The notes: generated from the sequence alone by a model not told the origin. 64,000 nucleotides of DNA from an uncultured Candidatus Saccharibacteria bacterium (GCA_964637575.1 CAZWVU010000004.1:14788-78787), one strand, 5' to 3'; counted from the first letter of the stretch, positions 6,661 to 25,671 are shown. Program-made: numbers and translations.

Positions 6661-6763
6661 CGCCAGGACGTCGGGCTACAATCCTGTCTGCGGGAAGAAG
6701 GTATGCTCGTCTTCTGTTCTTCTCCTCGCCAGGACGTCGGGCTACAATCCTGTCTGCGGGAAG
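6661..6763 (+). repeat. Two copies of a 37-nt dispersed repeat (CGCCAGGACGTCGGGCTACAATCCTGTCTGCGGGAAG at 6661-6697 and 6727-6763) separated by 29 nt
   Basis: Exact 37-nt duplication. The same unit recurs at 14038-14074 and 25635-25671. A terminator hairpin follows at ~6796-6826. Confidence 0.85.
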
Positions 6764-6821
6764 AACAGAAGACTTCGCTTTTATTTTTTTTGTGTGGAAA
6801 AAACCGCCGGCATGGGCGGTT

Positions 6822-7148
6822 TTAGTTTTGGGAGGGTTTGGCAAGATCGTTGACCACGTTTTCCTTGCGCTTCTGTTCGGATTTGTACTGCAGCGCGAAG
6901 AGACGGAGCGGCCGGATTTCTTCCTCGCTTCCTTCCAGCGCATGACAATCAATCCGTCCTTCCGAATCGTCGGCGTAGGCGAGCAGAATCACTCCCGGTT
7001 TGGAAATGTCCATGAACGAGCGGCGCGCGCCGCGGTGGTCAATGCAGGCGATAATCGCGGCCCGGGCGGCATCCGCGTCCAGCGGGCGCTTTTCCAGATC
7101 CTTGGTGGTGTCGTCCTTTTCTATTGAAAACGTACGGAGAATGATCAT
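6822..7148 (-). CDS. Hypothetical acidic protein
   Basis: 108-aa ORF divergent from rpmA. Weak resemblance to small regulatory proteins. No firm motif. Confidence 0.4.
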   Translation of the reverse strand: MIILRTFSIEKDDTTKDLEKRPLDADAARAAIIACIDHRGARRSFMDISKPGVILLAYADDSEGRIDCHALEGSEEEIRPLRLFALQYKSEQKRKENVVNDLAKPSQN

Positions 7149-7161
7149 AGCAGTCCTTTCG

Positions 7162-7191
7162 TTGACAATGAGCGTATTCCTGTACTATACT
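7162..7191 (+). promoter_or_regulatory. Sigma70-like promoter upstream of rpmA
   Basis: TTGACA (7162-7167), 18-bp spacer, TATACT (7186-7191). ~25 nt before the rpmA start. Confidence 0.45.
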
Positions 7192-7214
7192 CTTTTTATT
7201 AAATTTTTTAAGCT

Positions 7215-7499
7215 ATGGCACACACTAAATCAGGCGGTTCGACCCGGTTAGGACGCGATTCGGAGTCCAAACGCCTCGGCATAAAAGTAAACGAGAAAGA
7301 AGCCGTAAAAACCGGCGAAATTATTGTCCGCCAGCGCGGCAGCCATGTCCTTCCGGGCGCCAATGTCGCCCAGGGCGGCGATGACACGCTCTACGCGATT
7401 AAAACCGGCGTAGTGAAATTCACGGACGTGAAAAAAACACGTTTTGACGGCACCCGCCGTTACGTCAAGAAAGTCCACGTCATTACTCCGCAGAAATAG
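7215..7499 (+). CDS. rpmA: 50S ribosomal protein L27
   Basis: [16 protein letters not shown]...QRG is the typical L27 N-terminus. Confidence 0.95.
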
Positions 7500-7908
7500 A
7501 AATTTTCGCGATTCCCCTCACTCCCTTCCCGAAATCAACCGGCACCTCATGCGTGCCGGTTTTTCGCAGCGGTTTTTCCAGGCCGATCCTCACTTCGCCA
7601 TATCCTTTGGCGGCCAGCGTTTTCCGGATATCTTCGGCGGTTACCGATCCGAACACTTCGCCCTTAGCACCTGCCTTCACGCGGAATTCCAGGACGTCTT
7701 TCTTGAGCTGCGCGGCGCGCTTGGCATAGCCGTCGATCAGCGCTTTCTCTCCGGCGTCGATGTGCGCTTTCATTTTCATCGCTCCCTCGTCCGCGGGCAC
7801 CGCCAGCTTCCGCGCGAAAAGAAAATTCCGCGCGTAGCCGTCGGCGACTTCCTTCACCTCATTTTTCTTTCCTATTTTTTTAACATCCTGCAATAACAGA
7901 ACTTTCAT
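7483..7908 (-). CDS. rplI: 50S ribosomal protein L9
   Basis: [30 protein letters not shown] is the L9 N-domain signature. 141 aa. Confidence 0.9.
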
Positions 7909-7920
7909 AAGAATAATTGT

Positions 7921-9183
7921 CTATCCGAGACGGTCATTTTGTATGAAGGTAAGGAGTGCCTTGAACCAGAGCCGGATTGCCCGCCAGAACGGCATGATGG
8001 AAAGCAGATAGTTGAGCTCCACCAGTCCTTTGAGCGCCCATCCGGCGAATCCGGAAATAATAAACGGCCCCAGTTTCGCCACCGCCCACTTTCCGCCCAC
8101 CGGCACCACGTAGGGATACTCCGACGCCCGGTACTCGCGGTGGCGGGGATCGCCGGTAATATCGCACCAGACATTGTGAGCCGCCACGTCCGCCTGGGAG
8201 ATGGCCGCGCGCGCCACGCCGGGGACCGGCCGGCCGGTTGTGGGATCGGTGAAACAGATCGCGTCGCCGATGCCGTAGACTTTGCCGTAAAGATTGAGAT
8301 CCGGCGTTTGGGGAAGGCAGCGCATTTGATTTTCCACCTCCACGCGCCCGCGTTTCTCCAGCCTCAACGGCAGGTTGGCCATGAGCGAAGCCGCCTTCAC
8401 GCCGCCGGTCCAGATCAGCAGGTCATACGGCAATTCGCTGCCGCCGGCGAGCAGTATTTTTTCGGGGGCGACTTTGGCAATCGCCTGATCGGTGATGATT
8501 TCCGTGCCGAGCCCTTTCAGGCGGCCCTGGATTTTTTCAACAATAAGTCCGGGAAAGCCGAGCATCAGCGACGGTCCCGCTTCCACGAGCGTGACCCTTA
8601 CCCGGCAGCCGGGAAACTGGTCCGCCAGCTCCGCGAACCATTCCTGGATCTCCCCCGCGAGCTCCACGCCGGTCGAGCCGCCGCCGCCCACCACGATCCG
8701 GACGTCTTTTTTTTGCTGGACCGCCTCCAGCACCGCGTCGCGGATTTTCAGCGAGTCGACGAAGGTTTTGAGTGTGAGCGAATGTTCTTTCAGTCCGGGA
8801 ATATCAAAATAATTCGTTTCGGAACCGAGTGCCAGAATGAGATGGTCGGGGCGGAGCACCCGGCCGTTCACTAGATTCACGTAGCCGTCCTGGAGATCGA
8901 GCGACTGCACTTCCGACTGGATAAATTCCACGCCCATCGGCGCCACAATCGTTTCCACCGGAAAGGTGACCAAGCTTTTGATGTCGGAGTAATTCGCCGT
9001 TTCCTTCGAGGTGGTGGCCGATTCGTACAGCGTCGGCGTGTAGGTGTGATAGGCGTTGCGGTCAACTAGCACCAGTTCGCAGTGTTCCATGCCGCTCCGG
9101 CGGATTTTTTTCGCGAGCACAATGGCCGCGCGGAGACCGCCGAATCCGGCGCCGAGAATGACAATGGTGTTCTTCCGGTTCAT
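7921..9183 (-). CDS. ndh: Type II NADH dehydrogenase / FAD-dependent pyridine nucleotide-disulfide oxidoreductase
   Basis: N-terminal GAGFGG Rossmann motif and a second VVGGGGSTGVE motif. 420 aa. Confidence 0.8.
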   Translation of the reverse strand: MNRKNTIVILGAGFGGLRAAIVLAKKIRRSGMEHCELVLVDRNAYHTYTPTLYESATTSKETANYSDIKSLVTFPVETIVAPMGVEFIQSEVQSLDLQDGYVNLVNGRVLRPDHLILALGSETNYFDIPGLKEHSLTLKTFVDSLKIRDAVLEAVQQKKDVRIVVGGGGSTGVELAGEIQEWFAELADQFPGCRVRVTLVEAGPSLMLGFPGLIVEKIQGRLKGLGTEIITDQAIAKVAPEKILLAGGSELPYDLLIWTGGVKAASLMANLPLRLEKRGRVEVENQMRCLPQTPDLNLYGKVYGIGDAICFTDPTTGRPVPGVARAAISQADVAAHNVWCDITGDPRHREYRASEYPYVVPVGGKWAVAKLGPFIISGFAGWALKGLVELNYLLSIMPFWRAIRLWFKALLTFIQNDRLG

Positions 9184-9249
9184 TATTCATTAGTTTATCA
9201 TCTCCGCCGGAAGTTTGCTTCACGCGGTCGGCAATGAGATAATAAGAAC

Positions 9250-10254
9250 ATGAAATTCCTCGCGGATTGCCCGAAAAAAGATCTGGCGGGAAAAACCTGT
9301 CTCCTGCGGGTGGATTTTAACGTGGAAAGCGACAAGGACGCGCTCCGGCTTGAGGCCTCCCTGCCGACGATCAAATTTCTGCTGAAGCATGGCGCGCGCG
9401 TGCTGATGCTGAGCCACCGAGGCCGGCCCAAAGGCGCGGAGAAAACACTTTCGCTCCGGCCATTCCTCCCGTTCCTCAAGAAGCATCTCAAAAAAGAAGT
9501 TCATTTTCTGGAGACGCTGCCGGCGCGTCTGCCGGAAGGCGACGTCTTTCTGATGGAAAATCTCCGGTTCTGGCCGGAAGAAGAAGCCGATGACACCGGT
9601 TTCGCGAAGCGGCTGGCGAGGCTTGGTGATCTCTACGTGAATGACGCGTTTGCCGTCTGCCACCGCGCCAACGCTTCCGTCACCCAACTGCCGAAACTTC
9701 TGCCATCCTACGCCGGACTTCTTTTGCAGAAAGAAATCGAAACATTGTCGGAAGCGATGAAGAAACCGGAAAAGCCGCTCGTGCTTATCTTCGGAGGGAG
9801 CAAGGTGGAGGATAAGGCGCCGGTGATCAAGTATCTTTTGCCGAAGGCGGCGAAGGTGCTGCTCGGAAGCAGTGCGCTCAACAATTCTTACTCTCTGCCG
9901 AAATCGCCGAAGATTGAAAAGCCGGTGGACTGGATGGCGGAGGGCAACCTGGCGATGGATATCGGTTCCATTACCGCCGAACGGTACGCGGAAGAAATCA
10001 AACACGCGAAGACAGTCATCTGGAACGGCCCGGTCGGAAAGTTTGAAGACGCGCAGTACCGCGGCGGCTCGGTGGCGCTCGCGAAGGCGGTGGCGAAGAG
10101 CGGGGCGTTTTCCATCATCGGCGGCGGTGAGACGACCCAGCTGATCCTTTCCCTTAAGCTTCGCAACAAAATCGGTTTTCTTTCCACCGGCGGCGGCGCC
10201 ATGCTGGAATTCCTCGCCGGGAAAAAACTGCCGGGCATAGAAGCGCTCCGCTAA
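9250..10254 (+). CDS. pgk: Phosphoglycerate kinase
   Basis: LLRVDFNV, MLSHRGRPKG, VNDAFAVCHRANAS, IIGGGETT. 334 aa. Confidence 0.9.
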   Translation: MKFLADCPKKDLAGKTCLLRVDFNVESDKDALRLEASLPTIKFLLKHGARVLMLSHRGRPKGAEKTLSLRPFLPFLKKHLKKEVHFLETLPARLPEGDVFLMENLRFWPEEEADDTGFAKRLARLGDLYVNDAFAVCHRANASVTQLPKLLPSYAGLLLQKEIETLSEAMKKPEKPLVLIFGGSKVEDKAPVIKYLLPKAAKVLLGSSALNNSYSLPKSPKIEKPVDWMAEGNLAMDIGSITAERYAEEIKHAKTVIWNGPVGKFEDAQYRGGSVALAKAVAKSGAFSIIGGGETTQLILSLKLRNKIGFLSTGGGAMLEFLAGKKLPGIEALR

Positions 10255-10274
10255 AAAATTTTAAATTTAAAATT

Positions 10275-11132
10275 ATGAAACCCATTGTGATCTTCCACGG
10301 TGAATGTTGGGACGGGTTCGGGGGCGGGTACGCCGCCTGGAAAAAGTTCGGCGATGACGCCGAATATGTTCCGATGAAGCATGGCTTCGCGGCGCCGGAC
10401 GTCGCCGGCCGGGACGTGTACATCATTGATTTCTCGTTTCACCATGACGTGATGGAGGAAATTATAAAAAAGGCGCGCCGCGTCGTGGCGCTGGATCATC
10501 ACGTGAGCGCCGAACAGGCAACGAAGATGGCGCATGAATTCGTCTACGAACTGGATCATTCCGGCGCAGTGATCGCCTGGAAATATTTCCATCCGGACGA
10601 AAAAGTGCCGGAATTGCTGCTTCATATCGAAGACGTGGATATCTGGAAGTGGAACCTTCCGCATACCGCGGAATTGATGGCGTATATGGGTCTGGCGGAG
10701 TACGACTTCAAACTGTGGGATCAGATCGCCGCAGATTGGGAGGATCCAAAAAAATTGGCGGCGTACGTGGAAAAAGGATCGTATCTTTTGAAATACGAGG
10801 ACGCGATGGTGAAACGGCTGATTGACGGCGCGATGCTGGTAGAGTTTGAGGGATACAACACGCTCGTCGTGAATTCGCCGGTGCTTCATTCGGAGATTGG
10901 AATGCGGCTGACCAAACTGGTGCCGCCGATTGCGATCGTCTGGAGCGAAAAGACGGGCATCCGACGCGTCTCGCTGCGTTCCGACGGCACCGTGGATACC
11001 ACGAAGCTGGCGGCGAAATACGGCGGGGGCGGACACAGGGCCGCATCCGGCTTTGCTGTTCCATTGGACAAGCCTCTGCCCTGGAAGATTATAGACAAGA
11101 ATCCATTTAAAAAAGATGGCGAGCAAAGCTAA
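10275..11132 (+). CDS. DHH/DHHA1 phosphoesterase (NrnA-like nanoRNase / pAp phosphatase)
   Basis: HGECWDGFGGGYA, LDHHV and C-terminal GGGHRAASGF (DHHA1) motifs. Confidence 0.8.
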   Translation: MKPIVIFHGECWDGFGGGYAAWKKFGDDAEYVPMKHGFAAPDVAGRDVYIIDFSFHHDVMEEIIKKARRVVALDHHVSAEQATKMAHEFVYELDHSGAVIAWKYFHPDEKVPELLLHIEDVDIWKWNLPHTAELMAYMGLAEYDFKLWDQIAADWEDPKKLAAYVEKGSYLLKYEDAMVKRLIDGAMLVEFEGYNTLVVNSPVLHSEIGMRLTKLVPPIAIVWSEKTGIRRVSLRSDGTVDTTKLAAKYGGGGHRAASGFAVPLDKPLPWKIIDKNPFKKDGEQS

Positions 11133-11760
11133 AAAGCAAAAGTATTACGCGTGCTACATTCCGGAGACGCAAAAAAAGCTGGTGACGGATATATGGGCGG
11201 AATGCGAATCCCTCGTGAAGGGTGTGCGAGGGGCGCGGTACAAGTCGTTTGATTCCAAAGAAGAAGCCGAGCGGTGGCTGAGGGCCGGTGCCAGTTACGG
11301 GCCGCCGAAAGCGCGCGTGAAAAAAGAGAAGCAAAAAGCGCTGGAGCCGGGAATTTATTTTGACGCGGGGACGGGGAGAGGCGACGGCGTGGAGATCAGC
11401 GTCACTGATGAGAAGGGCAAGAATCTGCTGGATAAAATCCTTCTGCCGGAAGAGCTGAATAAATACGGCAAGCATCTGCTGGAAAGCGAAGAGGCGACGA
11501 ATAATTTTGGCGAACTGCTGGCCTGCCGGTACGCGCTGATGATCGCGATAGACAGCGATATCAAAAAAGTTTTCGGCGACAGCAAGCTCGTCATCGATTA
11601 CTGGTCCAAAGGATTCATCAAAAAGAAGGACGTGGCGCCGGAGACGGTGAAACTGGCGGAAGAAGTGATGAAAATCCGCAACGAATTTGAACTCGCCGGC
11701 GGCTCCCTCGGCCGTGTTTCCGGGGATATTAATCCGGCTGACCTGGGGTTTCATCGCTAG
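11116..11760 (+). CDS. rnhA: Ribonuclease H1 with N-terminal hybrid-binding (caulimovirus VI-like) domain
   Basis: HBD: KYYACY...ECESLVKGVRGARYKSFDSKEEAERWL. RNase H core: YFDAGTGRGDG, TNNFGELLACRYAL, GDSKLVIDYW. Confidence 0.8.
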   Translation: MASKAKKQKYYACYIPETQKKLVTDIWAECESLVKGVRGARYKSFDSKEEAERWLRAGASYGPPKARVKKEKQKALEPGIYFDAGTGRGDGVEISVTDEKGKNLLDKILLPEELNKYGKHLLESEEATNNFGELLACRYALMIAIDSDIKKVFGDSKLVIDYWSKGFIKKKDVAPETVKLAEEVMKIRNEFELAGGSLGRVSGDINPADLGFHR

Positions 11761-11764
11761 GACT

Positions 11765-11894
11765 GTTGGAAAGTTCCCCGGGAACCGGGTGTCCGTCGCG
11801 CTCCTGCGGCGCGACGGCACCACTAAAAACTCGGCAATTTGCAGGGCGCCAAGCCAAATTGCCTCCGTTATTTTCCCTACGGGAACTTTCCAAC
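11765..11894 (+). ncRNA. Copy 1 of an unassigned structured RNA-like element (GGGAACCGGGUGUCC family)
   Basis: 14-bp closing stem (GTTGGAAAGTTCCC / GGGAACTTTCCAAC). Conserved core with two internal hairpins. Covariation with copies at 28057, 41705 and 26268 (minus). Confidence 0.6.
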
Positions 11895-12181
11895 ATCCTT
11901 TTCCATCAATCCCGAACATATTAGGTTGCTGGCGAGGAGAAAGAGGGTGGGCTTGAGCGGCGCGGTTGGAAATAAAAAACCCGGTCAACATTTCTGTTGC
12001 CGGGTTTTGGATACTAACCTTTGCAAATGGAGCTGACGCGGATGATGCTTCCGGGAGCCGGCTTTCCGACGGTTTCCCGAAGGAGCTTGAAAAGGCCGAT
12101 ACGGAGTTTGGTCTTCGCCTTCTTCTCCAGAACCTTTTCAACCCGGACTCGGACGTGCCATTTGATGTGCATGCGGTCTCC

Positions 12182-12679
12182 TCATTTCAAAACTTTCACG
12201 TCCAGCCACTTCACACCGAAGCGACGGGCTTCGGAGTGCGACGCCATACGGACATCGATGTGAGTGATGCCGCGCTTGGCGTCCTGGCGCATCGCGCCGC
12301 CGGTGTCGTCCACCTCGCGGAGGCCGACGCCGGGGATGTCCAGGCGGGTGTGATAGGGGAGCAGCTTTGGATCCGCTGCCACCCCGTCATACCGGCGCCC
12401 GTCCTTGCCGGTCGCCGTTCTCGCGAACTTCGACCAGCTGCCGCAGCAGATGTCGCAGGTGCAGTATGCCGTTACCAGCATTCTTACCGCGACATGTTCC
12501 GCGCGGTGTTCCGGAGCTTCCGGAGCAGCGATTTTTCCCGCCGCTGGAGTCGCCGATTGCGCCACCAGGCGCGGAGCCACTTCCATGCGTTGAATCTCAT
12601 GGTTCGCTTCCCTCCGTGCAACCCAGATGACCCCTGCTCCCATCATCAACACCAGGCCGATGACAGGAGAAGTCTTCAC
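12182..12679 (-). CDS. 3D-domain (MltA/YocH-like) cell-wall-associated protein
   Basis: N-terminal TM. CTCDICCGSW...TATG...VAADP...VDDTGGAM is a 3D domain. Confidence 0.7.
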   Translation of the reverse strand: MKTSPVIGLVLMMGAGVIWVARREANHEIQRMEVAPRLVAQSATPAAGKIAAPEAPEHRAEHVAVRMLVTAYCTCDICCGSWSKFARTATGKDGRRYDGVAADPKLLPYHTRLDIPGVGLREVDDTGGAMRQDAKRGITHIDVRMASHSEARRFGVKWLDVKVLK

Positions 12680-13101
12680 CGCTCATCCTCCAACACAATG
12701 ATCTGCATCTTCGTCCGCTTGAACGCCGTCACTTCCTCGTGCGTGCGCACGCGGAAGCACAACAGAAGTTCGCCGCGCTGCGCCAGCGCCTCTTGCAGGC
12801 GCCTGCCCGTGTCGTCGACGATTTTCTCGCCGATGCCGGGAAGATACACGCGCTTGCCGAAGGGGATCGCCTTCGGGTCGGCGGCGGCGCCGTCGAAGTG
12901 TTTTGCCCCGTCCTTTCCCGTGGCGGTTTTTCCGCCGGGATTGGAGTCGCCGCAGCACTTCGCGCACATGCAGTACGCGAACACCGTCGCTTCGCGGGCA
13001 TCTTCCTTCTTCTGTTTCTGCTGGGCCATTACCGTTCCGGAATAGCCGAAGCCGAACAGGAAACTCGGAACCAGAAGCACTACGAACGCAAATTTGGTCA
13101 C
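12676..13101 (-). CDS. 3D-domain protein (paralog of the preceding gene)
   Basis: Signal/TM N-terminus. CMCAKCCGDS...TATG...AAADP...VDDTG. Confidence 0.7.
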   Translation of the reverse strand: MTKFAFVVLLVPSFLFGFGYSGTVMAQQKQKKEDAREATVFAYCMCAKCCGDSNPGGKTATGKDGAKHFDGAAADPKAIPFGKRVYLPGIGEKIVDDTGRRLQEALAQRGELLLCFRVRTHEEVTAFKRTKMQIIVLEDER

Positions 13102-13199
13102 ATTCCCTCCTCTTTTCAGTTCTCAAAGACCACAAAAATACCAGTATTTTATACCATTAAATAAGCCTACTTGTCAAGTATGACGCGGTATGGTATGGT

Positions 13200-13558
13200 G
13201 CAGGTGGCTGGCAATCCAGACAACCGCGCTCCGGTCCGCAAGGATCACGGGTGAGGAAAGTCGGAGCTCCCGTCCCGGTCGCAAGACCGAAGACAAAGGT
13301 AGCAGTTAACAACTGCCGGCAGTAATGCAGAGGTGCGAACAGTGACGTCCCGAAGCGAAAGCTGAAGGAGAGCCCCATCCCAACGTAGAAGGCTCAACCC
13401 GATTATAGGGATACAAGATCGGGGTGAAACGGCTAAATTCCTTACCGGGTGCAAGGCCGTACTCCGCAAGGAGAGTGCCGCTCGAGGTCTGCCGCGAGGT
13501 AGATCCCAGATAAATGGTTGTCCACGACAAAACTCCGCTTACGGATTGCCAGCCTTCA
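13200..13558 (+). ncRNA. rnpB: RNase P RNA (bacterial type A)
   Basis: P1 pairing GGCTGGCAATCC (13206-13217) with GGATTGCCAGCC (13543-13554). GAGGAAAGTCGGAGCTCC and GGGGTGAAACGG conserved blocks. Followed by a terminator. Confidence 0.85.
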
Positions 13559-13561
13559 AAA

Positions 13562-13583
13562 CCCCCGATTCGTCGGGGTTTTT
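13562..13583 (+). terminator. Rho-independent terminator after rnpB
   Basis: CCCCGA-TTCG-TCGGGG hairpin followed by TTTTT. Confidence 0.7.
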
Positions 13584-13656
13584 GATTTCAGATGGGGGAT
13601 TGACAAATAATAATAAATTTGTCATAGTTTCAGCAGTTCATATGGGAGGAGGCGAT

Positions 13657-13992
13657 ATGGCGAAGATTCAAACCGAGGTGGGCGAGGTGAAGCGTGTATG
13701 CGCGCCGAGCTGCAAGAAGAATCTGAAGCATGAGCCGTGCGCATGCACCGAAAAAACGAAGGTGGTAACCAAGGTGGAGATTTTCGCGGTCTTCGAAGGA
13801 GTGCGGCGGTACCGGGCCTATTTCTCCCCGAATCCCAGAAATCCCGGAAGTCTGCCGAGGATTTCCAACAAGGAGCGCTTCAATGAGCAGGGCCAGCCGG
13901 AGGAAGTGAACGTCCAGATTCCGGACACCATCTACGTGGTCATGGCCCGCCGCGCCCTTGCCATCATCAACAGCGGAGCCCCTCAACTATGA
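13657..13992 (+). CDS. Hypothetical Cys-rich small protein
   Basis: GGAGGAGG RBS before the ATG at 13657. CAPSC...CAC cluster. No known domain. Confidence 0.45.
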   Translation: MAKIQTEVGEVKRVCAPSCKKNLKHEPCACTEKTKVVTKVEIFAVFEGVRRYRAYFSPNPRNPGSLPRISNKERFNEQGQPEEVNVQIPDTIYVVMARRALAIINSGAPQL

Positions 13993-14037
13993 GGGGCTTT
14001 TTCTTTCGCAACGCCCGACGCCGGCGCTCCTTCTCCT

Positions 14038-14074
14038 CGGCAGGACGTCGGGCTACAATCCTGCCTGCGGGAAG
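14038..14074 (+). repeat. Solitary copy of the 37-nt dispersed repeat (variant CGGCAGGACGTCGGGCTACAATCCTGCCTGCGGGAAG) with complementary flanks
   Basis: 35/37 identity to the 6661 unit. Flanks GCCGGCGCTCCTT / AAGGAGTGCCGGC can pair. Confidence 0.8.
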
Positions 14075-14156
14075 GAGTGCCGGCTCATTGAGAGAAAGAG
14101 GTAAGTTTGTGTGGATTAGTTTCAAGCGCAAGTGTGTTAAAATTAGACCATACGTT

Positions 14157-16939: not shown

Positions 16940-18408
16940 TGAAAATTTTGAATTTAAAATTTACAATTTTAAAAAAAGAAGAAGGGCAGTCGCTTGTTGA
17001 GCTCCTGGTCGCGATCGGCATTTTCAGCATCGCGACGGCCGCCGGCTTCAGTTTATTTTTCGGCGGGCAGATCATCTCCACCGACAGCTCCAATATCAAT
17101 CTGGCCACGGATTACGTCCGGGAGGCGCAGGACGCGCTCCGCGCGATCCGCAACCGCAATTTTACCGAACTGCTCACCGACGGGCCGCACGGCTTTACCT
17201 TCAACGGATCGGAGTGGCTCCTGTCGTCCAGTACCTCTGACACGAAAGATGTGTTTACGCGGCAGGTGAACATCGCCAAGGGGGATTCGGATAACATCAA
17301 GATCGCCACCACCACCGTCACCTGGTCCAGCGCCGATCCCAGCCGGACCGAAAGCCTTACCTTCGTCGAGCAGTTTACCGACTGGGAAACGCCGCTCCAG
17401 AGCAGCTGCAAGTCGCAGGCGCTGACCGGCGACTGGACGAATCCGGTTACGCTTGGTTCGGCGGATATCGGTTCGGGAAATTCCGGGACGGACGTCGTCG
17501 CCAAAGGCAGTTACGCCTACGTGAGCGGTACCGCTTCTTCCGCGAGCAAGCCGGATATTTTTGTGTTTGACGTGAGCGCGCCCGCGGCGCCGGTGCAAAA
17601 GGCTTCACTCAACGTTACCAACGGAGGAATCAACGCGCTTTTCCTGAATGGCAATTACCTCTACGCGGCTTCGCCCGACAACAGCAAGGAATTTCTGGTC
17701 TTTGACGTGACTACCCCGACCAGCATCACTCTCAAGGGTTCGCTGGATTTAACCGGCAACGATGACGCGCTTTCGGTAGTGACGATCGGCACCACTGCGA
17801 TCGTCGGACGGCAAGGAAGTGCCGCCAAACAGATCTCGTTTATTGACGTGAGCGACCCGGCCAATCCGAGCGTGATCAAAGAATTCACCAGTCCCAATGG
17901 CGGCGATATTACCGATCTCGCCTACACGGACAACCGGCTCTACGCGACGAATTATCTTGCCAACGGCACCGCCGACATCCTGACATTCGATATCACCGAT
18001 CCCAGAAACCCCACCTATATCAGCAGTTACGATGTTCCCGCCACGGACAAGCCGCTTTCCGCGTACGTGGAAATCAAAGCGGGCGGCACCAATCTTCTGC
18101 TGGGCGACGGCGACAATGAACTGGTGGCGGTGGGGGCGACAACCACGAGCGGCATGTACGTCCGGAGCCGGGTGAACGTCGGGGGCAAGGTGAATGATAC
18201 CGTCTGCGTGCTGGGCAATCTCGCGTTTCTCGCCACCGATAACCAGAACGCCGAATTTACCGTGGTGAATGTGAATAATCTCAACAGCCTTTCCGTGTAC
18301 TCAACTCTGAATTACCCGAATTTCGCGACCGGAATCGATTTCGACAGCAACAAGGTCTACATGGCGGTGCGAAGCAACGACGCGCTGCGCATTATCACGT
18401 CGCAATAA
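16939..18408 (+). CDS. Large pilin-like protein: prepilin N-terminus fused to LVIVD-repeat beta-propeller (putative pilus tip adhesin)
   Basis: Leader ...EEGQSLVELLVAIGIF with E at +5. Four or more LVIVD-type repeats (IFVFDVSAPAAP, LVFDVTTPTS, ISFIDVSDPANPS, LTFDITDPRNPT). Confidence 0.65.
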   Translation: MKILNLKFTILKKEEGQSLVELLVAIGIFSIATAAGFSLFFGGQIISTDSSNINLATDYVREAQDALRAIRNRNFTELLTDGPHGFTFNGSEWLLSSSTSDTKDVFTRQVNIAKGDSDNIKIATTTVTWSSADPSRTESLTFVEQFTDWETPLQSSCKSQALTGDWTNPVTLGSADIGSGNSGTDVVAKGSYAYVSGTASSASKPDIFVFDVSAPAAPVQKASLNVTNGGINALFLNGNYLYAASPDNSKEFLVFDVTTPTSITLKGSLDLTGNDDALSVVTIGTTAIVGRQGSAAKQISFIDVSDPANPSVIKEFTSPNGGDITDLAYTDNRLYATNYLANGTADILTFDITDPRNPTYISSYDVPATDKPLSAYVEIKAGGTNLLLGDGDNELVAVGATTTSGMYVRSRVNVGGKVNDTVCVLGNLAFLATDNQNAEFTVVNVNNLNSLSVYSTLNYPNFATGIDFDSNKVYMAVRSNDALRIITSQ

Positions 18409-19349: not shown

Positions 19350-19826
19350 ATGAACAACAACATGAAAAAGAACTCAGGTTTTACCCTCATTGAATTGCTC
19401 GTGGTAATCGGAATTATCGCGATTTTGGCAGGTGTGGTAATCGTAGCGTTGAACCCGGCCCGGCAATTCGCCCAGGCTCGGAACACCCAGCGCTCGGCAA
19501 ACGTGAACGCCATCTTGAACGCAGTCGGTCAGCGTCTGGCTGACAACCGCGGCACATGGCCCGTAGTTGCCGGCGATTGCGCCGCCCTCCCGACCGCGAC
19601 GACGACGATCTCCAGTTCGCAGTACAACATCTACAAGTGCATTGTGCCGAACTACATGAGCAGCCTCCCCGTAGATCCTTCGAACGGTACTCTTACCGAT
19701 GCGACGGATTACGACAGCGGCTATGAGATCGTGAAGGACACGACGACCGGACGGGTTACCGTGAACGCCAAGTACGCGGAAGCCATTGCCGGACTTGCCT
19801 CCACGACGATTTCCGTTTCACGCTAA
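19350..19826 (+). CDS. pilA: Type IV major pilin (copy 1)
   Basis: SGFTLIELLVVIGIIAILAGVV prepilin signal. 158 aa. Confidence 0.85.
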   Translation: MNNNMKKNSGFTLIELLVVIGIIAILAGVVIVALNPARQFAQARNTQRSANVNAILNAVGQRLADNRGTWPVVAGDCAALPTATTTISSSQYNIYKCIVPNYMSSLPVDPSNGTLTDATDYDSGYEIVKDTTTGRVTVNAKYAEAIAGLASTTISVSR

Positions 19827-19832: not shown

Positions 19833-20297
19833 ATGAATAAACAATCAGGTTTTACCCTCATTGAATTGCTCGTGGTAATCGGAATTATCGCGATTTTGGC
19901 AGGTGTGGTAATCGTAGCGTTGAACCCGGCCCGGCAATTCGCCCAGGCTCGGAACACCCAGCGCTCGGCAAACGTGAACGCCATCTTGAACGCAGTCGGT
20001 CAGCGTCTGGCTGACAACCGCGGCACATGGCCCGTAGTTGCCGGCGATTGCGCCGCCCTCCCGACCGCGACGACGACGATCTCCAGTTCGCAGTACAACA
20101 TCTACAAGTGCATTGTGCCGAACTACATGAGCAGCCTCCCCGTAGATCCTTCGAACGGTACTCTTACCGATGCGACGGATTACGACAGCGGCTATGAGAT
20201 CGTGAAGGACACGACGACCGGACGGGTTACCGTGAACGCCAAGTACGCGGAAGCCATTGCCGGACTTGCCTCCACGACGATTTCCGTAAGCAGATAG
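19833..20297 (+). CDS. pilA: Type IV major pilin (copy 2, identical mature protein)
   Basis: ~440 nt identical to copy 1. Differs only in the leader and in synonymous codons of the last 3 residues. Confidence 0.85.
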   Translation: MNKQSGFTLIELLVVIGIIAILAGVVIVALNPARQFAQARNTQRSANVNAILNAVGQRLADNRGTWPVVAGDCAALPTATTTISSSQYNIYKCIVPNYMSSLPVDPSNGTLTDATDYDSGYEIVKDTTTGRVTVNAKYAEAIAGLASTTISVSR

Positions 20298-20310
20298 TCT
20301 GCGAGAAACC

Positions 20311-20336: not shown

Positions 20337-20338
20337 TT

Positions 20339-21019
20339 TTAGGAGAAAAGTCCGTGCTTCACTATGACCCAGAGCGCCCGGAGGCCGTCAGTCCAGCGGA
20401 TTTTTTTGCCCTCTTCAAACGTGCGCCCATAGTACGAGACGCCGATTTCATAAAACCGCCAGCGTTTTTTACCGAGCTTAATCGTCACTTCCGGTTCGAA
20501 TCCAAAATCTTCTTCAACGAGCCGGACCGACCGGATTGCCTCGCGGCGGAATACTTTATAGCAGGTTTCGATATCGGTAAGGTTGAGGTTGGCAAAAAGA
20601 TTGGTGAGAAAAGTGATGAACCGGTTGGCGAGATAATGGCCGAAGAGCATCACGCGGTGCGGCGAAGACCCGACAAAGCGGGAGCCGTACACCACGTCCG
20701 CCTTTCCTTCCGCGATCGGCTGGATCAGGCGGGGATAATCCGCCGGGTCATATTCCAGATCGGCATCCTGGATAAGGATGATATCGCCGGTCGCCGCGGC
20801 GAGTCCGGTGTGAAGCGCCGCGCCCTTGCCGCGGTTCATTTCGTGACGGAGGACGGTAGCGTTGGGCGCCTGGTAGCCGCGGAGAAACCCGCGCGTGCCG
20901 TCGGTGGAGCAGTCATCCACAATAATAATTTCATCCGGTTTCTGTTCCTGCACTTTTTTCAGGATGAGGGGCAGGGTTTTTTCCTCGTTATAGACGGGAA
21001 TGATTATGGAAAGCTTCAT
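20339..21019 (-). CDS. GT2 glycosyltransferase (polyprenyl-phosphate sugar synthase, DPM1-like)
   Basis: LSIIIPVYNEE, IIIVDDCSTDGT and DADLEYDP (DxD) motifs. Confidence 0.85.
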   Translation of the reverse strand: MKLSIIIPVYNEEKTLPLILKKVQEQKPDEIIIVDDCSTDGTRGFLRGYQAPNATVLRHEMNRGKGAALHTGLAAATGDIILIQDADLEYDPADYPRLIQPIAEGKADVVYGSRFVGSSPHRVMLFGHYLANRFITFLTNLFANLNLTDIETCYKVFRREAIRSVRLVEEDFGFEPEVTIKLGKKRWRFYEIGVSYYGRTFEEGKKIRWTDGLRALWVIVKHGLFS

Positions 21020-21140
21020 CCCGCACATAACAAAGAGTGCGTTTCACGCAATCTTTGCATAAGATCATGCCGCGACTTTTCCTTGGGTTGATTTTGCATA
21101 AATGATTATAAGGTTAATTGCTCTTTGTTATGTGTGGGAT
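21018..21140. repeat. Imperfect 20-bp inverted repeat pair (ATCCCGCACATAACAAAGAG at 21018-21037 and CTCTTTGTTATGTGTGGGAT at 21121-21140) with an 83-bp non-coding spacer
   Basis: 19/20 reverse complement. Shares the core ATCCCRCACATAAC with the GIY-YIG-flanking repeat at 4228/4505. Confidence 0.85.
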
Positions 21141-21143
21141 TCA

Positions 21144-22703: not shown

Positions 22704-22753
22704 TTATTGATTGTAGCAAATAAAATTCCCCGACGTATATCGGGGAATTCCGG

Positions 22754-23128
22754 TCAGACTTTCGCGGCGAGATGGAACTCCACCTTGAAGGGTCCGGGAG
22801 TCTGGCGCTCTTCTTCGTAGGCGGGCAGTTCCAGCGCTTTGCCGAAGTTTTCGTACTGCACGAAGATGACGCTGCACTCTTTCTTTCCGCTGACGGCGTA
22901 CACGCGCACGGATTCGATGAGGCCGCGGGCCTGTTCCGCCCAGATGCCGAGCGCCATAGCCTGCATCGCTCCCACGGAGGCAGCCAGGATTGCCGTTCTC
23001 CAGTCGCCGAAAGCTTCCTGCTCGATCAGCTCGAGCTCCTGAAAAATCGCCGCCATTTCCCGGGAAGCCGCTTCCGCCGAAACGTCCACGGTTTTGCCAT
23101 TTTCCTTCCGCTTCACTACGCACCTCAC
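22754..23128 (-). CDS. Hypothetical soluble protein between the two membrane paralogs
   Basis: 124-aa ORF co-directional with its neighbours. Competing ORFs overlap in this GC-rich region. Confidence 0.3.
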   Translation of the reverse strand: MRCVVKRKENGKTVDVSAEAASREMAAIFQELELIEQEAFGDWRTAILAASVGAMQAMALGIWAEQARGLIESVRVYAVSGKKECSVIFVQYENFGKALELPAYEEERQTPGPFKVEFHLAAKV

Positions 23129-23176
23129 TCAAATTTCTACCATCAAATTACTAAAAAAATGGCAAAAAGTCAAATT

Positions 23177-24727
23177 TTATTTTACTCGGTACACAAGTTC
23201 ATTTTCAGTGGCGAACACTTTTTCAAAATGCGGATCGGCGGCGAGATTCGCGGCAAAACCGGCATTGCGGTCCAGCTCCACCATCACGTATTTCGCGCGA
23301 AAGTCGCCGGCGATGGCTTCATACAGCGATTTCCCGTCTTGGGGCGTACAGGGGAGCGCCGGGCAGGTGTACGGCTTGCCGCCGACGGCAAGGAAAAAAT
23401 TCTCAAAATAAAGTTTCGGATTGTAGGCGTATTCAAAGATCGGATCAGCGCCGTTGATGTAATAATCGCGATCATTCCAGAAGAAGAGCATCGGGAAGGA
23501 ATCCCAGGAAGTGTGAAATACAGTATCGCCGGGGCGGGAATGATCCTTCAGCCACAATGAAGCAGTTCTCAACTGGTCAGCGCCGCCCGCCGGCTCGGCG
23601 GCGTAGGTGGTATAGAGATAGGAATGCCAGGTCAGCATCACCAACAAAAGGCAGCCGAACACCAGCGACACCGCCGGTTTTTTAGAATGGTGCCACCATG
23701 AAAAAAGCGACGCGGCGAGTATCACCGCGAAAAGGGCGAAAAAATCGGTGGCGCGGCGGCCGAGCGTGAAGCCGAGCGCCAGAAAGACAATCGACAGGCA
23801 GGAGGCAGACCAGACAAGACGTTTCATTTCGGAAGGAGCGGCGGAGAATTTTTTGGATTTGAGCGCGAATGCCAGAATCCCGATGGCGATCAGCCAAACG
23901 GCAAGGATGGGAATGAGTTGGGTGAGGATGACGGTGCCGTTCAGCGGCCGGAGTTCGTCGCCGGAAAGAAGCGGGACGCCAGCCCGCTTCGCGGCGATCA
24001 GCTCAAAGAGCTGAATCCACAGGATCTTCGCGGCGCCGAACGGGTTGGGGCGGGAGAGCCAGCCAAGCAGCGTGCCCGCGATCACGGACGCCGGCATCTG
24101 CCAGAAATGTTTTTTCTCCACCCGCGCAGTAACGATTGCGACCACTGCGGTAACGAGCGGGGCAATCCAAAAAAAAGCGAGGTGCAGAAAAGGGATCGCG
24201 AACGCGAGCGCCGCAAGCAGGAGCCAGGATTTTTTAGTGGCCGGCTTGGCCTGAACGGAGCCGAATGGCCTGATAAGGAAAGAAAAAATCAGGGCGAGAA
24301 ACGCGATGGTCAGTGTGTTCGGCCGGAGCTGGTTCAACCGGAAGAGCAGATTCGGCGTGGCGAAATAAAAAAGAAGCGTCCAGAAAAACGGCCAGCGGAT
24401 TTCGTGGCGTTTCAGGACGAAATAAAATCCGAGCAGGGCCAGTGCCGCGAAGAGTGTCGCCGCCATTTTTACGCCAAGCGTGAGATCGGAAAAGACCGTG
24501 AAAGGGATCAGCAAAAGATGAAAGCCGTACCAGATATCGGCCTGATATGTCTTCCAGACGGAGAATTGCGTCCATGGGAAATCGGTACGGAATATCCCGT
24601 TCTGCGCGTAAACTGCCGCGTGCGTGATGTGATAAAACTGGTCCGGTTCAATCAATTGTCCCGGACCGAACACAAACACCGCGGCAAGCGCCAGGAAAAG
24701 TAAAAACACCGGCAGCCAGAATTTCAT
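23177..24727 (-). CDS. Polytopic membrane protein, putative GT-C-fold glycosyltransferase (paralog B)
   Basis: 516 aa. DQFYHITHA, FPWTQ, DIWYGFHLLLIPFT, YYINGADPIFEY. Confidence 0.55.
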   Translation of the reverse strand: MKFWLPVFLLFLALAAVFVFGPGQLIEPDQFYHITHAAVYAQNGIFRTDFPWTQFSVWKTYQADIWYGFHLLLIPFTVFSDLTLGVKMAATLFAALALLGFYFVLKRHEIRWPFFWTLLFYFATPNLLFRLNQLRPNTLTIAFLALIFSFLIRPFGSVQAKPATKKSWLLLAALAFAIPFLHLAFFWIAPLVTAVVAIVTARVEKKHFWQMPASVIAGTLLGWLSRPNPFGAAKILWIQLFELIAAKRAGVPLLSGDELRPLNGTVILTQLIPILAVWLIAIGILAFALKSKKFSAAPSEMKRLVWSASCLSIVFLALGFTLGRRATDFFALFAVILAASLFSWWHHSKKPAVSLVFGCLLLVMLTWHSYLYTTYAAEPAGGADQLRTASLWLKDHSRPGDTVFHTSWDSFPMLFFWNDRDYYINGADPIFEYAYNPKLYFENFFLAVGGKPYTCPALPCTPQDGKSLYEAIAGDFRAKYVMVELDRNAGFAANLAADPHFEKVFATENELVYRVK

Positions 24728-24819
24728 ACATAAAAGTATATATCATGTAAGGAAAAAGCGGGTCGGGCGTCTTCTACAGTGAGCCAAAGGTCGAAACCGA
24801 AGCTCATAATTACAAAATA

Positions 24820-25566
24820 ATGAACACAAATATGAAAAATCTTCTCATGGCGTTCGCGTTTAGCGTGGCGGTAACGGCGGTAGTCGCAGTCGGTTTGCCG
24901 GTGGCATTTGCCGAGGCGGACTCGGCGACGAGCACGCCGGCAACCCATCAGCTGGCGCAGATGTCGGTGAATGTCGAACGGAACGGTAATATAAAACTGG
25001 TCGGACAATTGACCGCCGTCAGCGGCACTAATCTTACGGTGCAGAGCTGGGGAGGCGCCTGGGCGGTGGATGCTTCGGCCGCGAAGATCGTCCGCCGGTT
25101 TAACGGCGAATCCAATTTTGCCGAGTATCAGGTCGGTGACACGGTGACGGTCTGGGGTGACGCTTCCGCGAGCGGCCTTACCGTCAAGGCGAAGATGGTC
25201 AAGGATGAATCCATCCAGAAGCGGGGCGCTGACTTCATCGGAGTTATTTCCGGAGTCAATGCATCCAGCACGACCAGCTTCACGCTGACTGTGAAGAACC
25301 GCGGCGCGCTGGCGATTACGGTGAATGCGGATACCAAAATCACCATCAACGGCCAGTCCGCGTCTTCTACTGCGGGTTTGACGAACGGCATGTACGCGAG
25401 CGTTACCGGAGTTTGGGATACCACCAACTCCACGGTCATCGCGGCCACGGTGAACGCCAGGACCGCGGCGAGCGTGCTTGATGACGCGAATCCGAGCTTC
25501 CTGCAAAAGATATTCCGCTTCTTCGGAGGCAGGGGCAAGGGAGAAGGCAAGGGAAATCAGGAATAG
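24820..25566 (+). CDS. Secreted repeat protein (DUF5666-like beta repeats)
   Basis: Signal peptide MKNLLMAFAFSVAVTAVVAVGLPVAFA. Repeated VGDTVTVWGD / TVKNRGALAITVNADTKITING segments. Confidence 0.55.
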   Translation: MNTNMKNLLMAFAFSVAVTAVVAVGLPVAFAEADSATSTPATHQLAQMSVNVERNGNIKLVGQLTAVSGTNLTVQSWGGAWAVDASAAKIVRRFNGESNFAEYQVGDTVTVWGDASASGLTVKAKMVKDESIQKRGADFIGVISGVNASSTTSFTLTVKNRGALAITVNADTKITINGQSASSTAGLTNGMYASVTGVWDTTNSTVIAATVNARTAASVLDDANPSFLQKIFRFFGGRGKGEGKGNQE

Positions 25567-25634
25567 TTCACGCAAAACATCCGCTTCGGCGGATGTTTTT
25601 GGTTTCTTTGGTTTCGCGAACTCCTCCTTCTCCT

Positions 25635-25671
25635 CGCCAGGACGTCGGGCTACAATCCTGTCTGCGGGAAG
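25635..25671 (+). repeat. Solitary exact copy of the 37-nt dispersed repeat with 13-bp complementary flanks
   Basis: Identical to the 6661 unit. Flanks CGAACTCCTCCTT / AAGGAGGAGTTCG are perfect reverse complements. Preceded by a terminator hairpin at ~25571-25603. Confidence 0.85.

What the first reader, a model, noticed from the sequence alone, without database searches (positions are those of the whole stretch)
6661..25671. Dispersed 37-nt repeat with locus-specific complementary flanks; one locus is a CRISPR-like doublet
CGCCAGGACGTCGGGCTACAATCCTGTCTGCGGGAAG occurs at 6661, 6727, 14038 (2 substitutions) and 25635. Every copy is flanked by short sequences that are reverse complements of each other but differ between loci: CGAACTCCTCCTT/AAGGAGGAGTTCG at 25635, GCCGGCGCTCCTT/AAGGAGTGCCGGC at 14038, GTCTTCTGTTCTTC/GAAGAACAGAAGAC at 6727. 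This gives the same architecture as the larger RNA family: a variable stem around a conserved interior. The interior has its own small stem, CAGGA..TCCTG. All copies sit in 3' intergenic regions of + strand genes (ctpA, 13657 gene, 24820 gene) and are separate from the canonical terminator hairpins next to them.
Basis: seen in the sequence. Interest (0 to 1): 0.55.

Follow-up and report, generated by a model that had tools for sequence, protein, structure and literature searches.

The report
Small mobile hairpin repeat in Parcubacteria
The 37-nt repeat is real, but it is best read as a small lineage-specific hairpin-forming DNA insertion scattered between genes of a tiny-genome (Parcubacteria-like) bacterium, not a CRISPR array or a conserved regulatory RNA. 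Its odd feature is an identical core closed by a different stem at each site.

Summary
**Observation.** The sequence observation holds. The 37-mer lies at 6661, 6727 and 25635 (exact) and at 14038 (2 substitutions), all on the + strand; 0 are expected by chance. The conserved unit is about 51 nt.

- Three copies are closed by locus-specific 14-15 bp stems, and the covariation exceeds all shuffles.
- Copy 6661 has no closing stem.

**What it is not.** There is no Rfam family, no cas gene and no transposase in the window.

**Comparative evidence for an insertion rather than a conserved RNA.**
- Short-read assemblies of the same genome break inside the copies.
- Four related genomes, plus one 97%-identical contig at the ctpA site only, lack it at the orthologous sites that could be checked. 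About 80 kb of relatives' DNA has no copy outside one insert.
- At the pilB site, both stem arms, the core and a 25-nt tail are all extra DNA relative to the relatives.
- One related MAG carries two inverted copies bounding a higher-GC, two-gene ORFan insert between fusA and tuf. An independent assembly confirms this.

**Interpretation.** It is most likely a non-autonomous mobile hairpin repeat (MITE/REP-like). The conserved apical part would be the recognised module. The basal stem is hypervariable but stays complementary.

**Open points.** The mobilising enzyme and the origin of the variable arms are unknown. Two other unrelated cores in this clade share the same architecture.

The parts
6645..6705 (+). 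Copy 1 of the doublet. The core 37-mer is at 6661-6697 and starts 10 nt after the ctpA stop codon (6648-6650). It has no 5' arm and no closing stem. Its 3' flank GAAGAAGGTATGCTCG resembles the 3' arm of the L001-left copy.
6709..6773 (+). Copy 2 of the doublet, a complete hairpin. Arms: 6709-6722 GTCTTCTGTTCTTC and 6760-6773 GAAGAACAGAAGAC. Core: 6727-6763.
   Evidence: The Logan contigs L005 and L007 end at 6758, inside this core.
6774..6792 (+). 3' tail of copy 2, TTCGCTTTTATTTTTTTT. It carries the semi-conserved TCGCTT motif and a T-run, and it precedes the bidirectional terminator hairpin at about 6800-6826.
14020..14084 (+). Copy 3, a complete hairpin. Arms: 14020-14033 GCCGGCGCTCCTTC and 14071-14084 GAAGGAGTGCCGGC (one G.T). 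Core: 14038-14074, with C3G and T27C, which make an extra G-C pair in the inner stem.
   Evidence: L005 starts at 14056, inside the core.
14085..14109 (+). 25-nt tail, TCATTGAGAGAAAGAGGTAAGTTTG. Like the hairpin, it is absent from the orthologous pilB-upstream spacer of four relatives. It lies just upstream of the conserved pilB promoter motif TGTGGATTAG...TGTGTTAAAAT.
25616..25682 (+). Copy 4, a complete hairpin. Arms: 25616-25630 GCGAACTCCTCCTTC and 25668-25682 GAAGGAGGAGTTCGC. Core: 25635-25671.
25683..25697 (+). 3' tail of copy 4, TGCCGTCTCGCAGAA. It is extra relative to the orthologous spacer of L013 and L011. TGGTTT occurs on both sides of the insert; this is a weak candidate for a target duplication because the context is low-complexity.

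Best explanation
**What it is.** It is a lineage-specific, non-autonomous mobile DNA element of about 65-90 bp, a MITE/REP-like interspersed palindrome, in a Parcubacteria-like (CPR) chromosome. Each copy is one long imperfect hairpin.

**Anatomy, from apex to base.**
- A 13-nt loop, CGTCGGGCTACAA.
- A 7-bp inner stem, GCCAGGA/TCCTGTC.
- A 5x5 internal loop, TCCTC/TGCGG.
- The first pairs of the outer stem, CTTC/GAAG.
- This apical stretch of about 50 nt is invariant. The next 6-10 bp of the stem differ completely between copies but stay complementary.
- A short 3' tail follows, with a semi-conserved (C)TCGCTT motif.

**Shown here.**
- The element is multi-copy.
- It inserts into intergenic DNA.
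- It is absent at every orthologous site that could be checked in close relatives.
- The arms belong to the inserted DNA.
- A pair of inverted copies can bound a horizontally acquired gene cassette.

**Inferred, not shown.**
- A trans-acting enzyme, not encoded in the window, recognises the conserved apical module on extruded or single-stranded hairpin DNA and moves the element. The closest analogy is an HUH/Y1 transposase or RAYT-like enzyme, or a structure-specific recombinase.
- The basal stem only has to pair. It is remodelled quickly by intra-hairpin template switching (quasipalindrome correction), which copies changes in one arm onto the other.
- Any effect on transcripts, such as 3'-end stabilisation, read-through blocking or SD-like GAAGGAGG sequestration, is a by-product.
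For: **Multi-copy in the genome.**
- Four copies lie in 64 kb, against 0 expected by chance.
- Independent short-read assemblies of the same genome break inside the cores. L005 equals window 6758-14056, and L008 and L009 end 39 nt after the ctpA stop.

**Cores identical while distal arms share nothing.**
- Cores match at 37/37, 37/37, 37/37, 35/37 and 36/37. Slow divergence of an old RNA family cannot produce this pattern.

**Empty orthologous sites.**
- ctpA 3' end: the 97.2%-identical contig L010 loses homology about 10 nt before the stop codon and carries different sequence after it. The contig ends 41 nt past the stop.
- pilB upstream: L016, L017/L018, L013 and L023 keep the terminator and promoter but lack about 90 nt, that is both arms, the core and the tail.
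- 25635 locus: L011, L013 and L023 have only a terminator there.
- No copy occurs anywhere else in about 80 kb of relatives' DNA.

**Inverted pair bounding a cassette in a related MAG.**
- MAG GCA_964432465.1 is a relative: PilB is 83% identical and the pilus locus is syntenic.
- It has the element only as an inverted pair bounding a 1.55-kb insert of two ORFan membrane-protein genes. The insert lies between fusA and tuf and has GC 53% against 47% for its surroundings.
- An independent assembly, L020, confirms it at 99.8% identity.

**Arms look like DNA palindromes.**
- They are almost perfect Watson-Crick: one G.T and one C.A in about 70 bp.
- The hairpin folds equally well on both strands and with DNA parameters.

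**Arm remodelling between the two L001 copies.**
- L001-left and L001-right differ by a 3-nt insertion in one arm, matched by a 5-nt change in the other, while their cores differ by 1 nt. Templated correction explains this better than independent point mutations.
- Quasipalindrome template switching is an established mechanism (PMC7202029, abstract).

**Not a known RNA.** There is no Rfam family, even at E<=10.
Against: - No transposase, RAYT or HUH gene occurs in the 64-kb window. Only 64 kb of an 86-kb contig could be inspected, so the mobilising enzyme is purely inferred.
- No clear target-site duplication and no conserved terminal inverted repeat were found, so it is not a textbook MITE.
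- All four window copies share one orientation and follow + strand genes. That is also what an RNA element would show, although with n=4 it proves little.
- The outer helix covaries and the inner-stem double substitution restores a pair. This fits RNA-level selection as well as DNA-level constraint.
- The relatives used for 'empty sites' are 66-80% identical in DNA, apart from one 97% contig that ends 41 nt past the ctpA stop. Loss rather than gain cannot be formally excluded at each site.
- How identical cores acquire unrelated distal arms is not explained by any demonstrated step.
Confidence: 0.55

Rival explanations
1. It is a structured cis-acting or small RNA. When transcribed from the + strand, the hairpin would act in 3' UTRs or intergenic read-through. 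It could work as a stabiliser against 3' exonucleases, a terminator helper, a protein-binding decoy, or an SD/anti-SD mimic (5' arm CUCCUCCUUC, 3' arm GAAGGAGGAG). The closing stem would be a sequence-free P1.
For: - All four window copies are co-oriented with the upstream gene.
- The fold is strong, with z down to -5.9.
- The outer helix covaries, with 7 of 12 pairs changed on both sides.
- The double substitution in copy 14038 creates a G-C pair in the inner stem.
- One G.U in the 14038 stem is tolerated only on the + strand.
- The doublet lies between the ctpA stop and the terminator, so it is probably transcribed.
- The D7 family, which has the same architecture, shows two compensatory changes in its inner helices.
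Against: - Two of the four copies lie downstream of canonical terminators and upstream of the next promoter.
- L001-right is antisense to every neighbouring gene.
- The element is absent from every orthologous site checked in the relatives.
- Every position of the cores is identical while the stems are unrelated. Old functional RNA families do not look like this.
- The stems are near-perfect Watson-Crick, with a C.A on the + strand in L001-left.
- The neighbouring genes have nothing in common: a protease, pilB, and ORFans.
- There is no Rfam match.
Confidence: 0.18
2. It is a site-specific recombination site or cassette boundary, functionally like integron attC or plasmid pdif sites. A recombinase would recognise the folded conserved core, and pairs of sites would delimit modules that are inserted, excised or inverted.
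For: - An inverted pair exactly bounds a foreign two-gene module in the fusA-tuf spacer of a relative.
- In the window, the doublet lies at the edge of a block (108-aa ORFan, L27, L9) that is inverted and expanded relative to L013, where ctpA is followed directly by L9.
- Copies sit at the 3' ends of genes, as attC sites do.
- The hairpin is imperfect, with an internal loop and a mismatch, as in folded attC.
Against: - The attC core motifs RYYYAAC/GTTRRRY are absent.
- In attC the ends are conserved and the centre is variable, which is the opposite of this element.
- No integron integrase or Xer-like gene lies next to any copy. The only recombinase in the window is a large serine recombinase in a distant low-GC island.
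- The other inversion breakpoint, around 7908-7921, has no copy.
- The solo copies at 14038 and 25635 delimit nothing.
Confidence: 0.15
3. It consists of orphan CRISPR repeats or a degenerate mini-array, the reader's 'CRISPR-like doublet'.
For: - The repeat is 37 nt long.
- Two copies lie 66 nt apart.
- There is a weak, sub-threshold resemblance to one CRISPR-DR model: 12 bits against a gathering score of 35.
Against: - There are only two tandem copies.
- The 29-nt 'spacer' is made of conserved element flanks and a stem arm.
- There are no cas genes in the window.
- Scans of 185,579 species genomes and 241 million metagenome records with the 19-mer found no array.
- The related MAG has no further exact 19-mer match anywhere.
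Confidence: 0.02

Closest known systems
REP / REPIN elements mobilised by RAYT (Y1 HUH) transposases
   Same: - Both are short extragenic imperfect palindromes, multi-copy and sometimes in pairs.
- Both form hairpins on single-stranded DNA.
- Neither has an obvious TSD.
- Here the four window copies share one orientation on a stretch with uniformly positive GC skew.
   Different: - In REP/REPINs the stem sequence itself is the conserved part and a GTAG lies at the foot of the stem. Here the distal stem is hypervariable, the conserved part is apical, and GTAG/CTAC lies in the loop.
- No RAYT gene was seen.
Bacterial MITEs (e.g. Correia/CREE, RUP, ERIC, Nezha)
   Same: - Both are small and non-coding, fold into a hairpin and occur between genes.
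- Both show presence/absence differences between relatives.
- Both can flank and co-mobilise genes as pairs.
   Different: - MITEs have conserved terminal inverted repeats that match a parent IS, and defined TSDs. Here the termini vary, no parent IS is known, and the TSD is unresolved.
- At about 65-90 bp, this element is at the small extreme.
IS200/IS605-derived palindrome-associated elements (PATEs) and IS91/Helitron-like ends
   Same: - Both have a hairpin followed about 10 nt later by a short conserved motif, here TCGC(TT).
- Neither has TIRs or a clear TSD.
- Both are strand-asymmetric, and recognition would be structural rather than by terminal sequence.
   Different: - Those elements have two distinct subterminal hairpins (LE and RE) with conserved stems.
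- No TnpA was found here.
- The TCGC motif is only semi-conserved, and its role is a guess.
Integron attC sites
   Same: - Both are imperfect hairpins at the 3' ends of genes and are structure-defined.
- Both bound gene cassettes.
- Both vary in sequence between sites while keeping their pairing.
   Different: - The attC R''/R' core motifs are absent.
- The conserved and variable parts are arranged the other way round.
- No IntI gene was found.
- The copies are not in a cassette array.
CRISPR repeats
   Same: - The repeat length is 37 nt.
- One pair has CRISPR-like spacing.
   Different: - There is no array and there are no cas genes.
- The spacer is part of the element.
- The flanks pair across the repeat.

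Membership tests
CRISPR array | Three or more regularly spaced direct repeats separated by unrelated spacers | tested here: not met
   There are at most two tandem copies (6661, 6727). The 29-nt interval is conserved flank plus a stem arm.
CRISPR array | cas genes in the locus or genome | tested here: not met
   Pfam scans of the window ORFs found none. The rest of the genome could not be inspected.
Known RNA family (Rfam 15) | Covariance-model match at or near the gathering score | tested here: not met
   Only tRNAs reach the gathering score. At E<=10 there are only generic miRNA-hairpin matches, far below threshold.
Conserved cis-regulatory RNA | Presence at orthologous loci in related genomes, in a fixed position and orientation relative to a gene class | tested here: not met
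   The element is absent at every orthologous site checked in four related genomes, and at the ctpA site of one 97%-identical contig. The neighbouring genes are unrelated to each other. One copy is antisense in L001.
Conserved cis-regulatory RNA | Covariation supporting helices | tested here: met
   In the outer helix, 7 of 12 pairs change on both sides, and 0 of 500 shuffles reach the observed score. DNA-level palindrome maintenance explains this equally well.
MITE | Small, non-coding, with insertion polymorphism between relatives | tested here: met
MITE | Conserved terminal inverted repeats shared with a parent IS | tested here: not met
   Only the stem-proximal CTTC/GAAG (+YYC) is conserved; the distal arms differ completely. 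No IS lies in the window.
MITE | Target-site duplication | tested here: inconclusive
   Candidates exist: TGGTTT at 25635 (low-complexity context) and a 7-nt GCTCGCT on both sides of L001-left. Nothing convincing is seen at 14038.
REP/REPIN-RAYT | Conserved palindromic stem with a 5' GTAG-type head | tested here: not met
   The distal stem is variable. CTAC/GTAG lies in the apical loop.
REP/REPIN-RAYT | A RAYT (Y1 transposase) gene in the genome, usually flanked by REPs | not testable with these tools
   None lies in the 64-kb window. The rest of the genome was not retrievable.
Integron attC | R''/R' core sites RYYYAAC...GTTRRRY at the outer ends, and an IntI integrase | tested here: not met
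   The motifs are absent from the arms of four of the five complete copies. No integrase lies next to any copy.
IS200/IS605-type element (PATE) | Subterminal hairpins, a conserved tetranucleotide at the cleavage sites, no TIR or TSD, strand bias | tested here: inconclusive
   A single hairpin is followed by semi-conserved TCGC(TT) 0-6 nt after the stem, and GCTC precedes the stem in 3 of 5 copies. All four window copies share one strand. No TnpA was found.

The most novel reading that the evidence does not exclude
Parcubacteria of this lineage may harbour a previously undescribed class of mobile hairpin elements. In it, an invariant structured core is carried inside a short hypervariable but self-complementary stem.

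**Support for a shared mechanism.** Three unrelated cores share this design:
- the 51-nt element studied here;
- the 105-nt D7 core;
- a 150-nt insert in L018.

**What the stem could be.** Either the variable stem is created anew at each insertion, for example by fold-back or template-switch synthesis, or it acts as a programmable specificity segment.
Probability: 0.18. Interest if true: 0.7.

Novelty: new variant of a known kind. Interest (0 to 1): 0.42.

Why it matters
- CPR/Patescibacteria genomes are small and are usually described as poor in mobile DNA. A family of tiny hairpin insertions that breaks assemblies, sits at rearrangement edges and bounds a transferred gene cassette would be a handle on how these genomes exchange and rearrange genes.
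- The unusual pattern is an identical core closed by an unrelated but complementary stem at each site, and it appears in several unrelated families. Ordinary MITE or REP biology does not explain it, so it could point to a new insertion or palindrome-maintenance mechanism.
- Practically, the element is a source of contig breaks and scaffold gaps in MAGs of this lineage.

Tried and rejected
**Searches that found nothing useful.**
1. Rfam at gathering and at E<=10: nothing but generic hairpin models.
2. Exact 19-mer scans of genome, metagenome and viral collections: one true extra locus (L001) and three chance hits.
3. Translating the element in its five open frames and searching 5.8 billion proteins for spurious ORFs over other copies: 4 word-sharing candidates, none scored.
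4. Exhaustive HMMER search of 1.84 billion representatives with the translated doublet: only low-complexity repeat proteins.
5. blastn against the phage and plasmid collections: no match.
6. Homologues of the L001 cargo protein, sought to find donor loci: it is an ORFan.
7. Extending the genome beyond the window through Logan contigs: the contigs are short and end at repeats.

**Ideas tested and dropped.**
8. The variable arms as guides that match other places in the window: no meaningful matches.
9. Pre-existing target hairpins as the source of the arms: the empty pilB sites in four relatives contain neither arm. This argues against the idea, but the relatives are only 71-82% identical there.
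10. A promoter inside the core (TACAAT): no -35 box and no scanner hit.

**Label not taken at face value.** The 'Saccharibacteria' title of the L001 MAG was not accepted as it stands. Another contig of the same assembly carries a pilus locus syntenic with the window.

Full report
**1. The observation**

The 37-mer CGCCAGGACGTCGGGCTACAATCCTGTCTGCGGGAAG occurs at 6661, 6727 and 25635 exactly, and at 14038 with two substitutions. All four copies are on the + strand, and no match is expected by chance (sequences).

Alignment of the copies shows a conserved unit of about 51 nt: CTTC TCCT CGCC...GCGG GAAG.

Three copies are closed by perfect or near-perfect locus-specific stems:
- 25616-25630 with 25668-25682;
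- 14020-14033 with 14071-14084, including one G.T;
- 6709-6722 with 6760-6773.

These three fold far better than shuffled sequence. The z-score is -4.5 to -5.9 as RNA on either strand, and -5.1 to -5.3 as DNA.

On a six-copy alignment, 7 of the 12 outer pairs change on both sides. No shuffle or slid register reaches the observed covariation.

The first copy of the doublet (6661) has no closing stem (z = -0.14 and +0.65), so 'every copy' is an overstatement.

The inner stem GCCAGGA/TCCTGTC carries a C.T mismatch. The two substitutions of copy 14038 convert it into a G-C pair.

**2. Host and context**

The window is a housekeeping stretch of a Parcubacteria-like (CPR) chromosome.
- It encodes type IV pilus genes, L9, L27, pgk, def, fmt, dnaK/grpE/dnaJ, dnaB, cysS and ddl.
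- The best PilB homologues carry Parcubacteria-group names.
- There are no cas genes and no transposases.
- The only recombinase is a large serine recombinase in a low-GC island at 59-64 kb.

Position of each copy:
- The doublet lies between the ctpA stop codon and a bidirectional terminator.
- Copies 14038 and 25635 lie after canonical terminators (13975-14000 and 25574-25599) and before the next gene's promoter.

**3. Not a known RNA and not CRISPR**

Rfam 15 gives only tRNAs at gathering score. At E<=10 the elements match only generic miRNA-precursor hairpins, at a quarter of their thresholds.

The 'spacer' of the doublet is the 3' flank of copy 1 plus the 5' arm of copy 2.

Scans of 185,579 species genomes, 241 million metagenome records and 2.9 million viral contigs with the central 19-mer found no array and only one other true locus.

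**4. Evidence that it is an insertion**

(a) *Assemblies break at the copies.* Logan assemblies of the same genome from several runs break inside the cores. L005 is window 6758-14056, that is from one copy to the next. L008 and L009 stop 39 nt after the ctpA stop. The repeat is therefore multi-copy in the genome.

(b) *A 97% contig lacks it at ctpA.* The 97.2%-identical contig L010 loses homology about 10 nt before the ctpA stop codon and continues with unrelated AT-rich sequence.

(c) *The pilB upstream site is empty in four relatives.* The terminator and the promoter motif TGTGGATTAG...TGTGTTAAAAT are conserved in L016, L017/L018, L013 and L023. The roughly 90 nt between them in the window are missing in all four: both arms, the core and a 25-nt tail. 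The arms are therefore part of the extra DNA. They are not a pre-existing target hairpin.

(d) *The 25635 locus is empty in relatives.* The orthologous spacer of L011, L013 and L023 has only a terminator.

(e) *No copies elsewhere in the relatives.* A profile of the six copies finds nothing else in about 80 kb of relatives' DNA.

**5. The second genome**

The only other genome with the element is MAG GCA_964432465.1. Its record title says Saccharibacteria. Another contig of the same assembly (L023) carries a pilus locus that is syntenic with the window and 72% identical to it, with PilB 83% identical and the same 47% GC. It is therefore a relative of the window organism, unless the bin is mixed.

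In this MAG the element occurs only as two inverted copies bounding a 1.55-kb insert.
- The copies are at L001 3395-3455 (+) and 4906-4966 (-).
- The insert holds two ORFan membrane-protein genes and lies between fusA and tuf.
- Its GC is 53%, against 47% for its surroundings and 54% for the window.
- An independent Logan assembly (L020, 99.8% identical) confirms the fusA/left copy/cargo/right copy order.
- The MAG's own pilB and sigma-factor sites are empty.

This looks like a cassette acquired from a lineage in which the element is common, with the element at both borders. The right-hand copy is antisense to all its neighbours.

**6. The variable arms**

The cores are identical or differ by 1-2 nt, whereas the distal arms share nothing. 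Conservation falls off with distance from the core:
- CTTC/GAAG is invariant.
- The next 3 bp define two subtypes: CTC (copies 25635 and 14038) and YTT (copies 6727 and 6661, and both L001 copies).
- The next 6-8 bp are unique to each copy.

Outside the stem there is again weak conservation.
- GCTC lies immediately 5' of the stem in 3 of 5 copies.
- (C)TCGCTT(K)AG lies 0-6 nt 3' of the stem in most copies.
- L001-left has the 7-mer GCTCGCT on both sides.
- The 3' flank of the stemless copy 6661 (GAAGAAGGTATGCTCG) resembles the 3' arms of both L001 copies.

The arms are therefore at least partly inherited.

L001-left and L001-right differ by a 3-nt insertion in the 5' arm, matched by a 5-nt replacement in the 3' arm, while their cores differ by a single base. 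That is what intra-hairpin template switching (quasipalindrome correction; PMC7202029, abstract) would produce.

The arms contain only one G.T and one C.A in about 70 bp, and these fall on opposite strands. Nothing therefore points to selection on one transcribed strand. How unrelated distal arms arise around identical cores remains unexplained. I found no matches of the arms elsewhere in the window.

**7. Interpretation**

The best reading (about 0.55) is a non-autonomous mobile hairpin repeat.
- Its conserved apical module would be the part recognised by a trans-acting enzyme.
- Its basal stem only has to pair.

Rival readings:
- a structured RNA acting in 3' UTRs (about 0.18);
- a recombination or cassette-boundary site (about 0.15). 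An inverted pair bounds a module, and the doublet lies at the edge of a block (108-aa ORFan, L27, L9) that is inverted relative to L013;
- orphan CRISPR repeats (about 0.02).

The element fails defining features of CRISPR, attC, REP and classical MITEs. It shares with them only general behaviour (see the membership table).

**8. Wider pattern**

Two further unrelated cores show the same design, a conserved interior inside a locus-specific closing stem.
- The D7 family lies at window 11761-11900 and 28051-28200, with a partial copy at 26343-26416. It folds as a three-way junction (z = -8.8 and -6.7), shows two compensatory changes, and is absent from the orthologous sites of relatives.
- A roughly 150-nt insert lies in the pilB promoter of L018.

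This recurrence is the most interesting aspect, and it is the basis of the novel reading (probability about 0.18).

**9. Limits**

- Only six copies, five of them with stems, could be studied.
- The rest of the source genome was not retrievable.
- All 'empty' sites except one come from relatives at 66-80% DNA identity.
- No expression data exist.

Noticed in passing
window 11761-11900 (+), 28051-28200 (+), 26343-26416 (-), fragment 41825-41852: This is a second repeat family (D7). A core of about 105 nt, 89% identical between copies, folds as a three-way junction (z = -8.8 and -6.7) and is closed by a locus-specific stem: GTTGGAAAGTTCCC/GGGAACTTTCCAAC in one copy and GGCCACCACC.../...GGTGGTGGCC in the other. 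Two compensatory changes separate copies A and B. There is no Rfam hit at E<=1. The family is absent at the orthologous sites of L013 and L011. The Logan contig L007 breaks at it.
   Followed up: partly
L018 667-812 (relative, Logan SRR8931234); the same place in L017 is a run of N: A third, unrelated hairpin-closed insert of about 150 nt sits inside the conserved pilB promoter of a relative. Its arms are CCGGGGAGTGCACCGAGCAC and GTGCTCGGTCTACTCACCCGG. TGTG occurs on both sides, a possible 4-bp target duplication. The NCBI assembly has a gap there.
   Followed up: partly
window 3411-3437, 3633-3673, 3714-3754, 10257-10283, 16944-16970, 33219-33259, 34274-34300: An AT-rich motif, AATTTTNAATTT, repeats with a 14-nt period at many gene boundaries. 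The same motif follows ctpA in the 97%-identical contig L010, in place of the doublet. It may be a promoter or UP-like element, or another repeat.
   Followed up: no
window 6822-7908 compared with L013 2618-3362: In the relative L013, ctpA is followed directly by L9(+) and L27(-). In the window the order is 108-aa ORFan(-), L27(+), L9(-). That is an inversion plus an extra gene, and the doublet lies at its left edge.
   Followed up: partly
window 59062-64000: A low-GC island (41.7% against about 54%) starts at a tRNA (59062-59132). It carries a large serine recombinase (59124-60803, -), a DUF5659 protein and an HTH_17 protein. It is probably an integrated element or prophage remnant.
   Followed up: no
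window 28595-28624 and 28744-28773: An exact 30-nt duplicate overlaps the 3' end of the tRNA at 28756-28829 (-). It looks att-like, the footprint of an integration or excision.
   Followed up: no
window 19350-19826 and 19833-20297: Two type IV pilin genes are duplicated in tandem. A 300-nt stretch is 99% identical between them.
   Followed up: no
window 42046-42062 (-) and 11929-11946 (-): There are 17/17 and 16/17 matches to the 5' part of the element (CTCCTTCTCCTCGCCAG), and both stop exactly at CGCCAG. The second is intergenic and lies next to D7 copy A. They could be truncated copies or chance matches (E about 2e-4 for the first).
   Followed up: no
L001 / L012 / L023 (GCA_964432465.1): The MAG is titled 'Candidatus Saccharibacteria', yet one of its contigs carries a pilus locus syntenic with this Parcubacteria-like window (PilB 83% identical). 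Either the label is wrong or the bin is mixed.
   Followed up: partly
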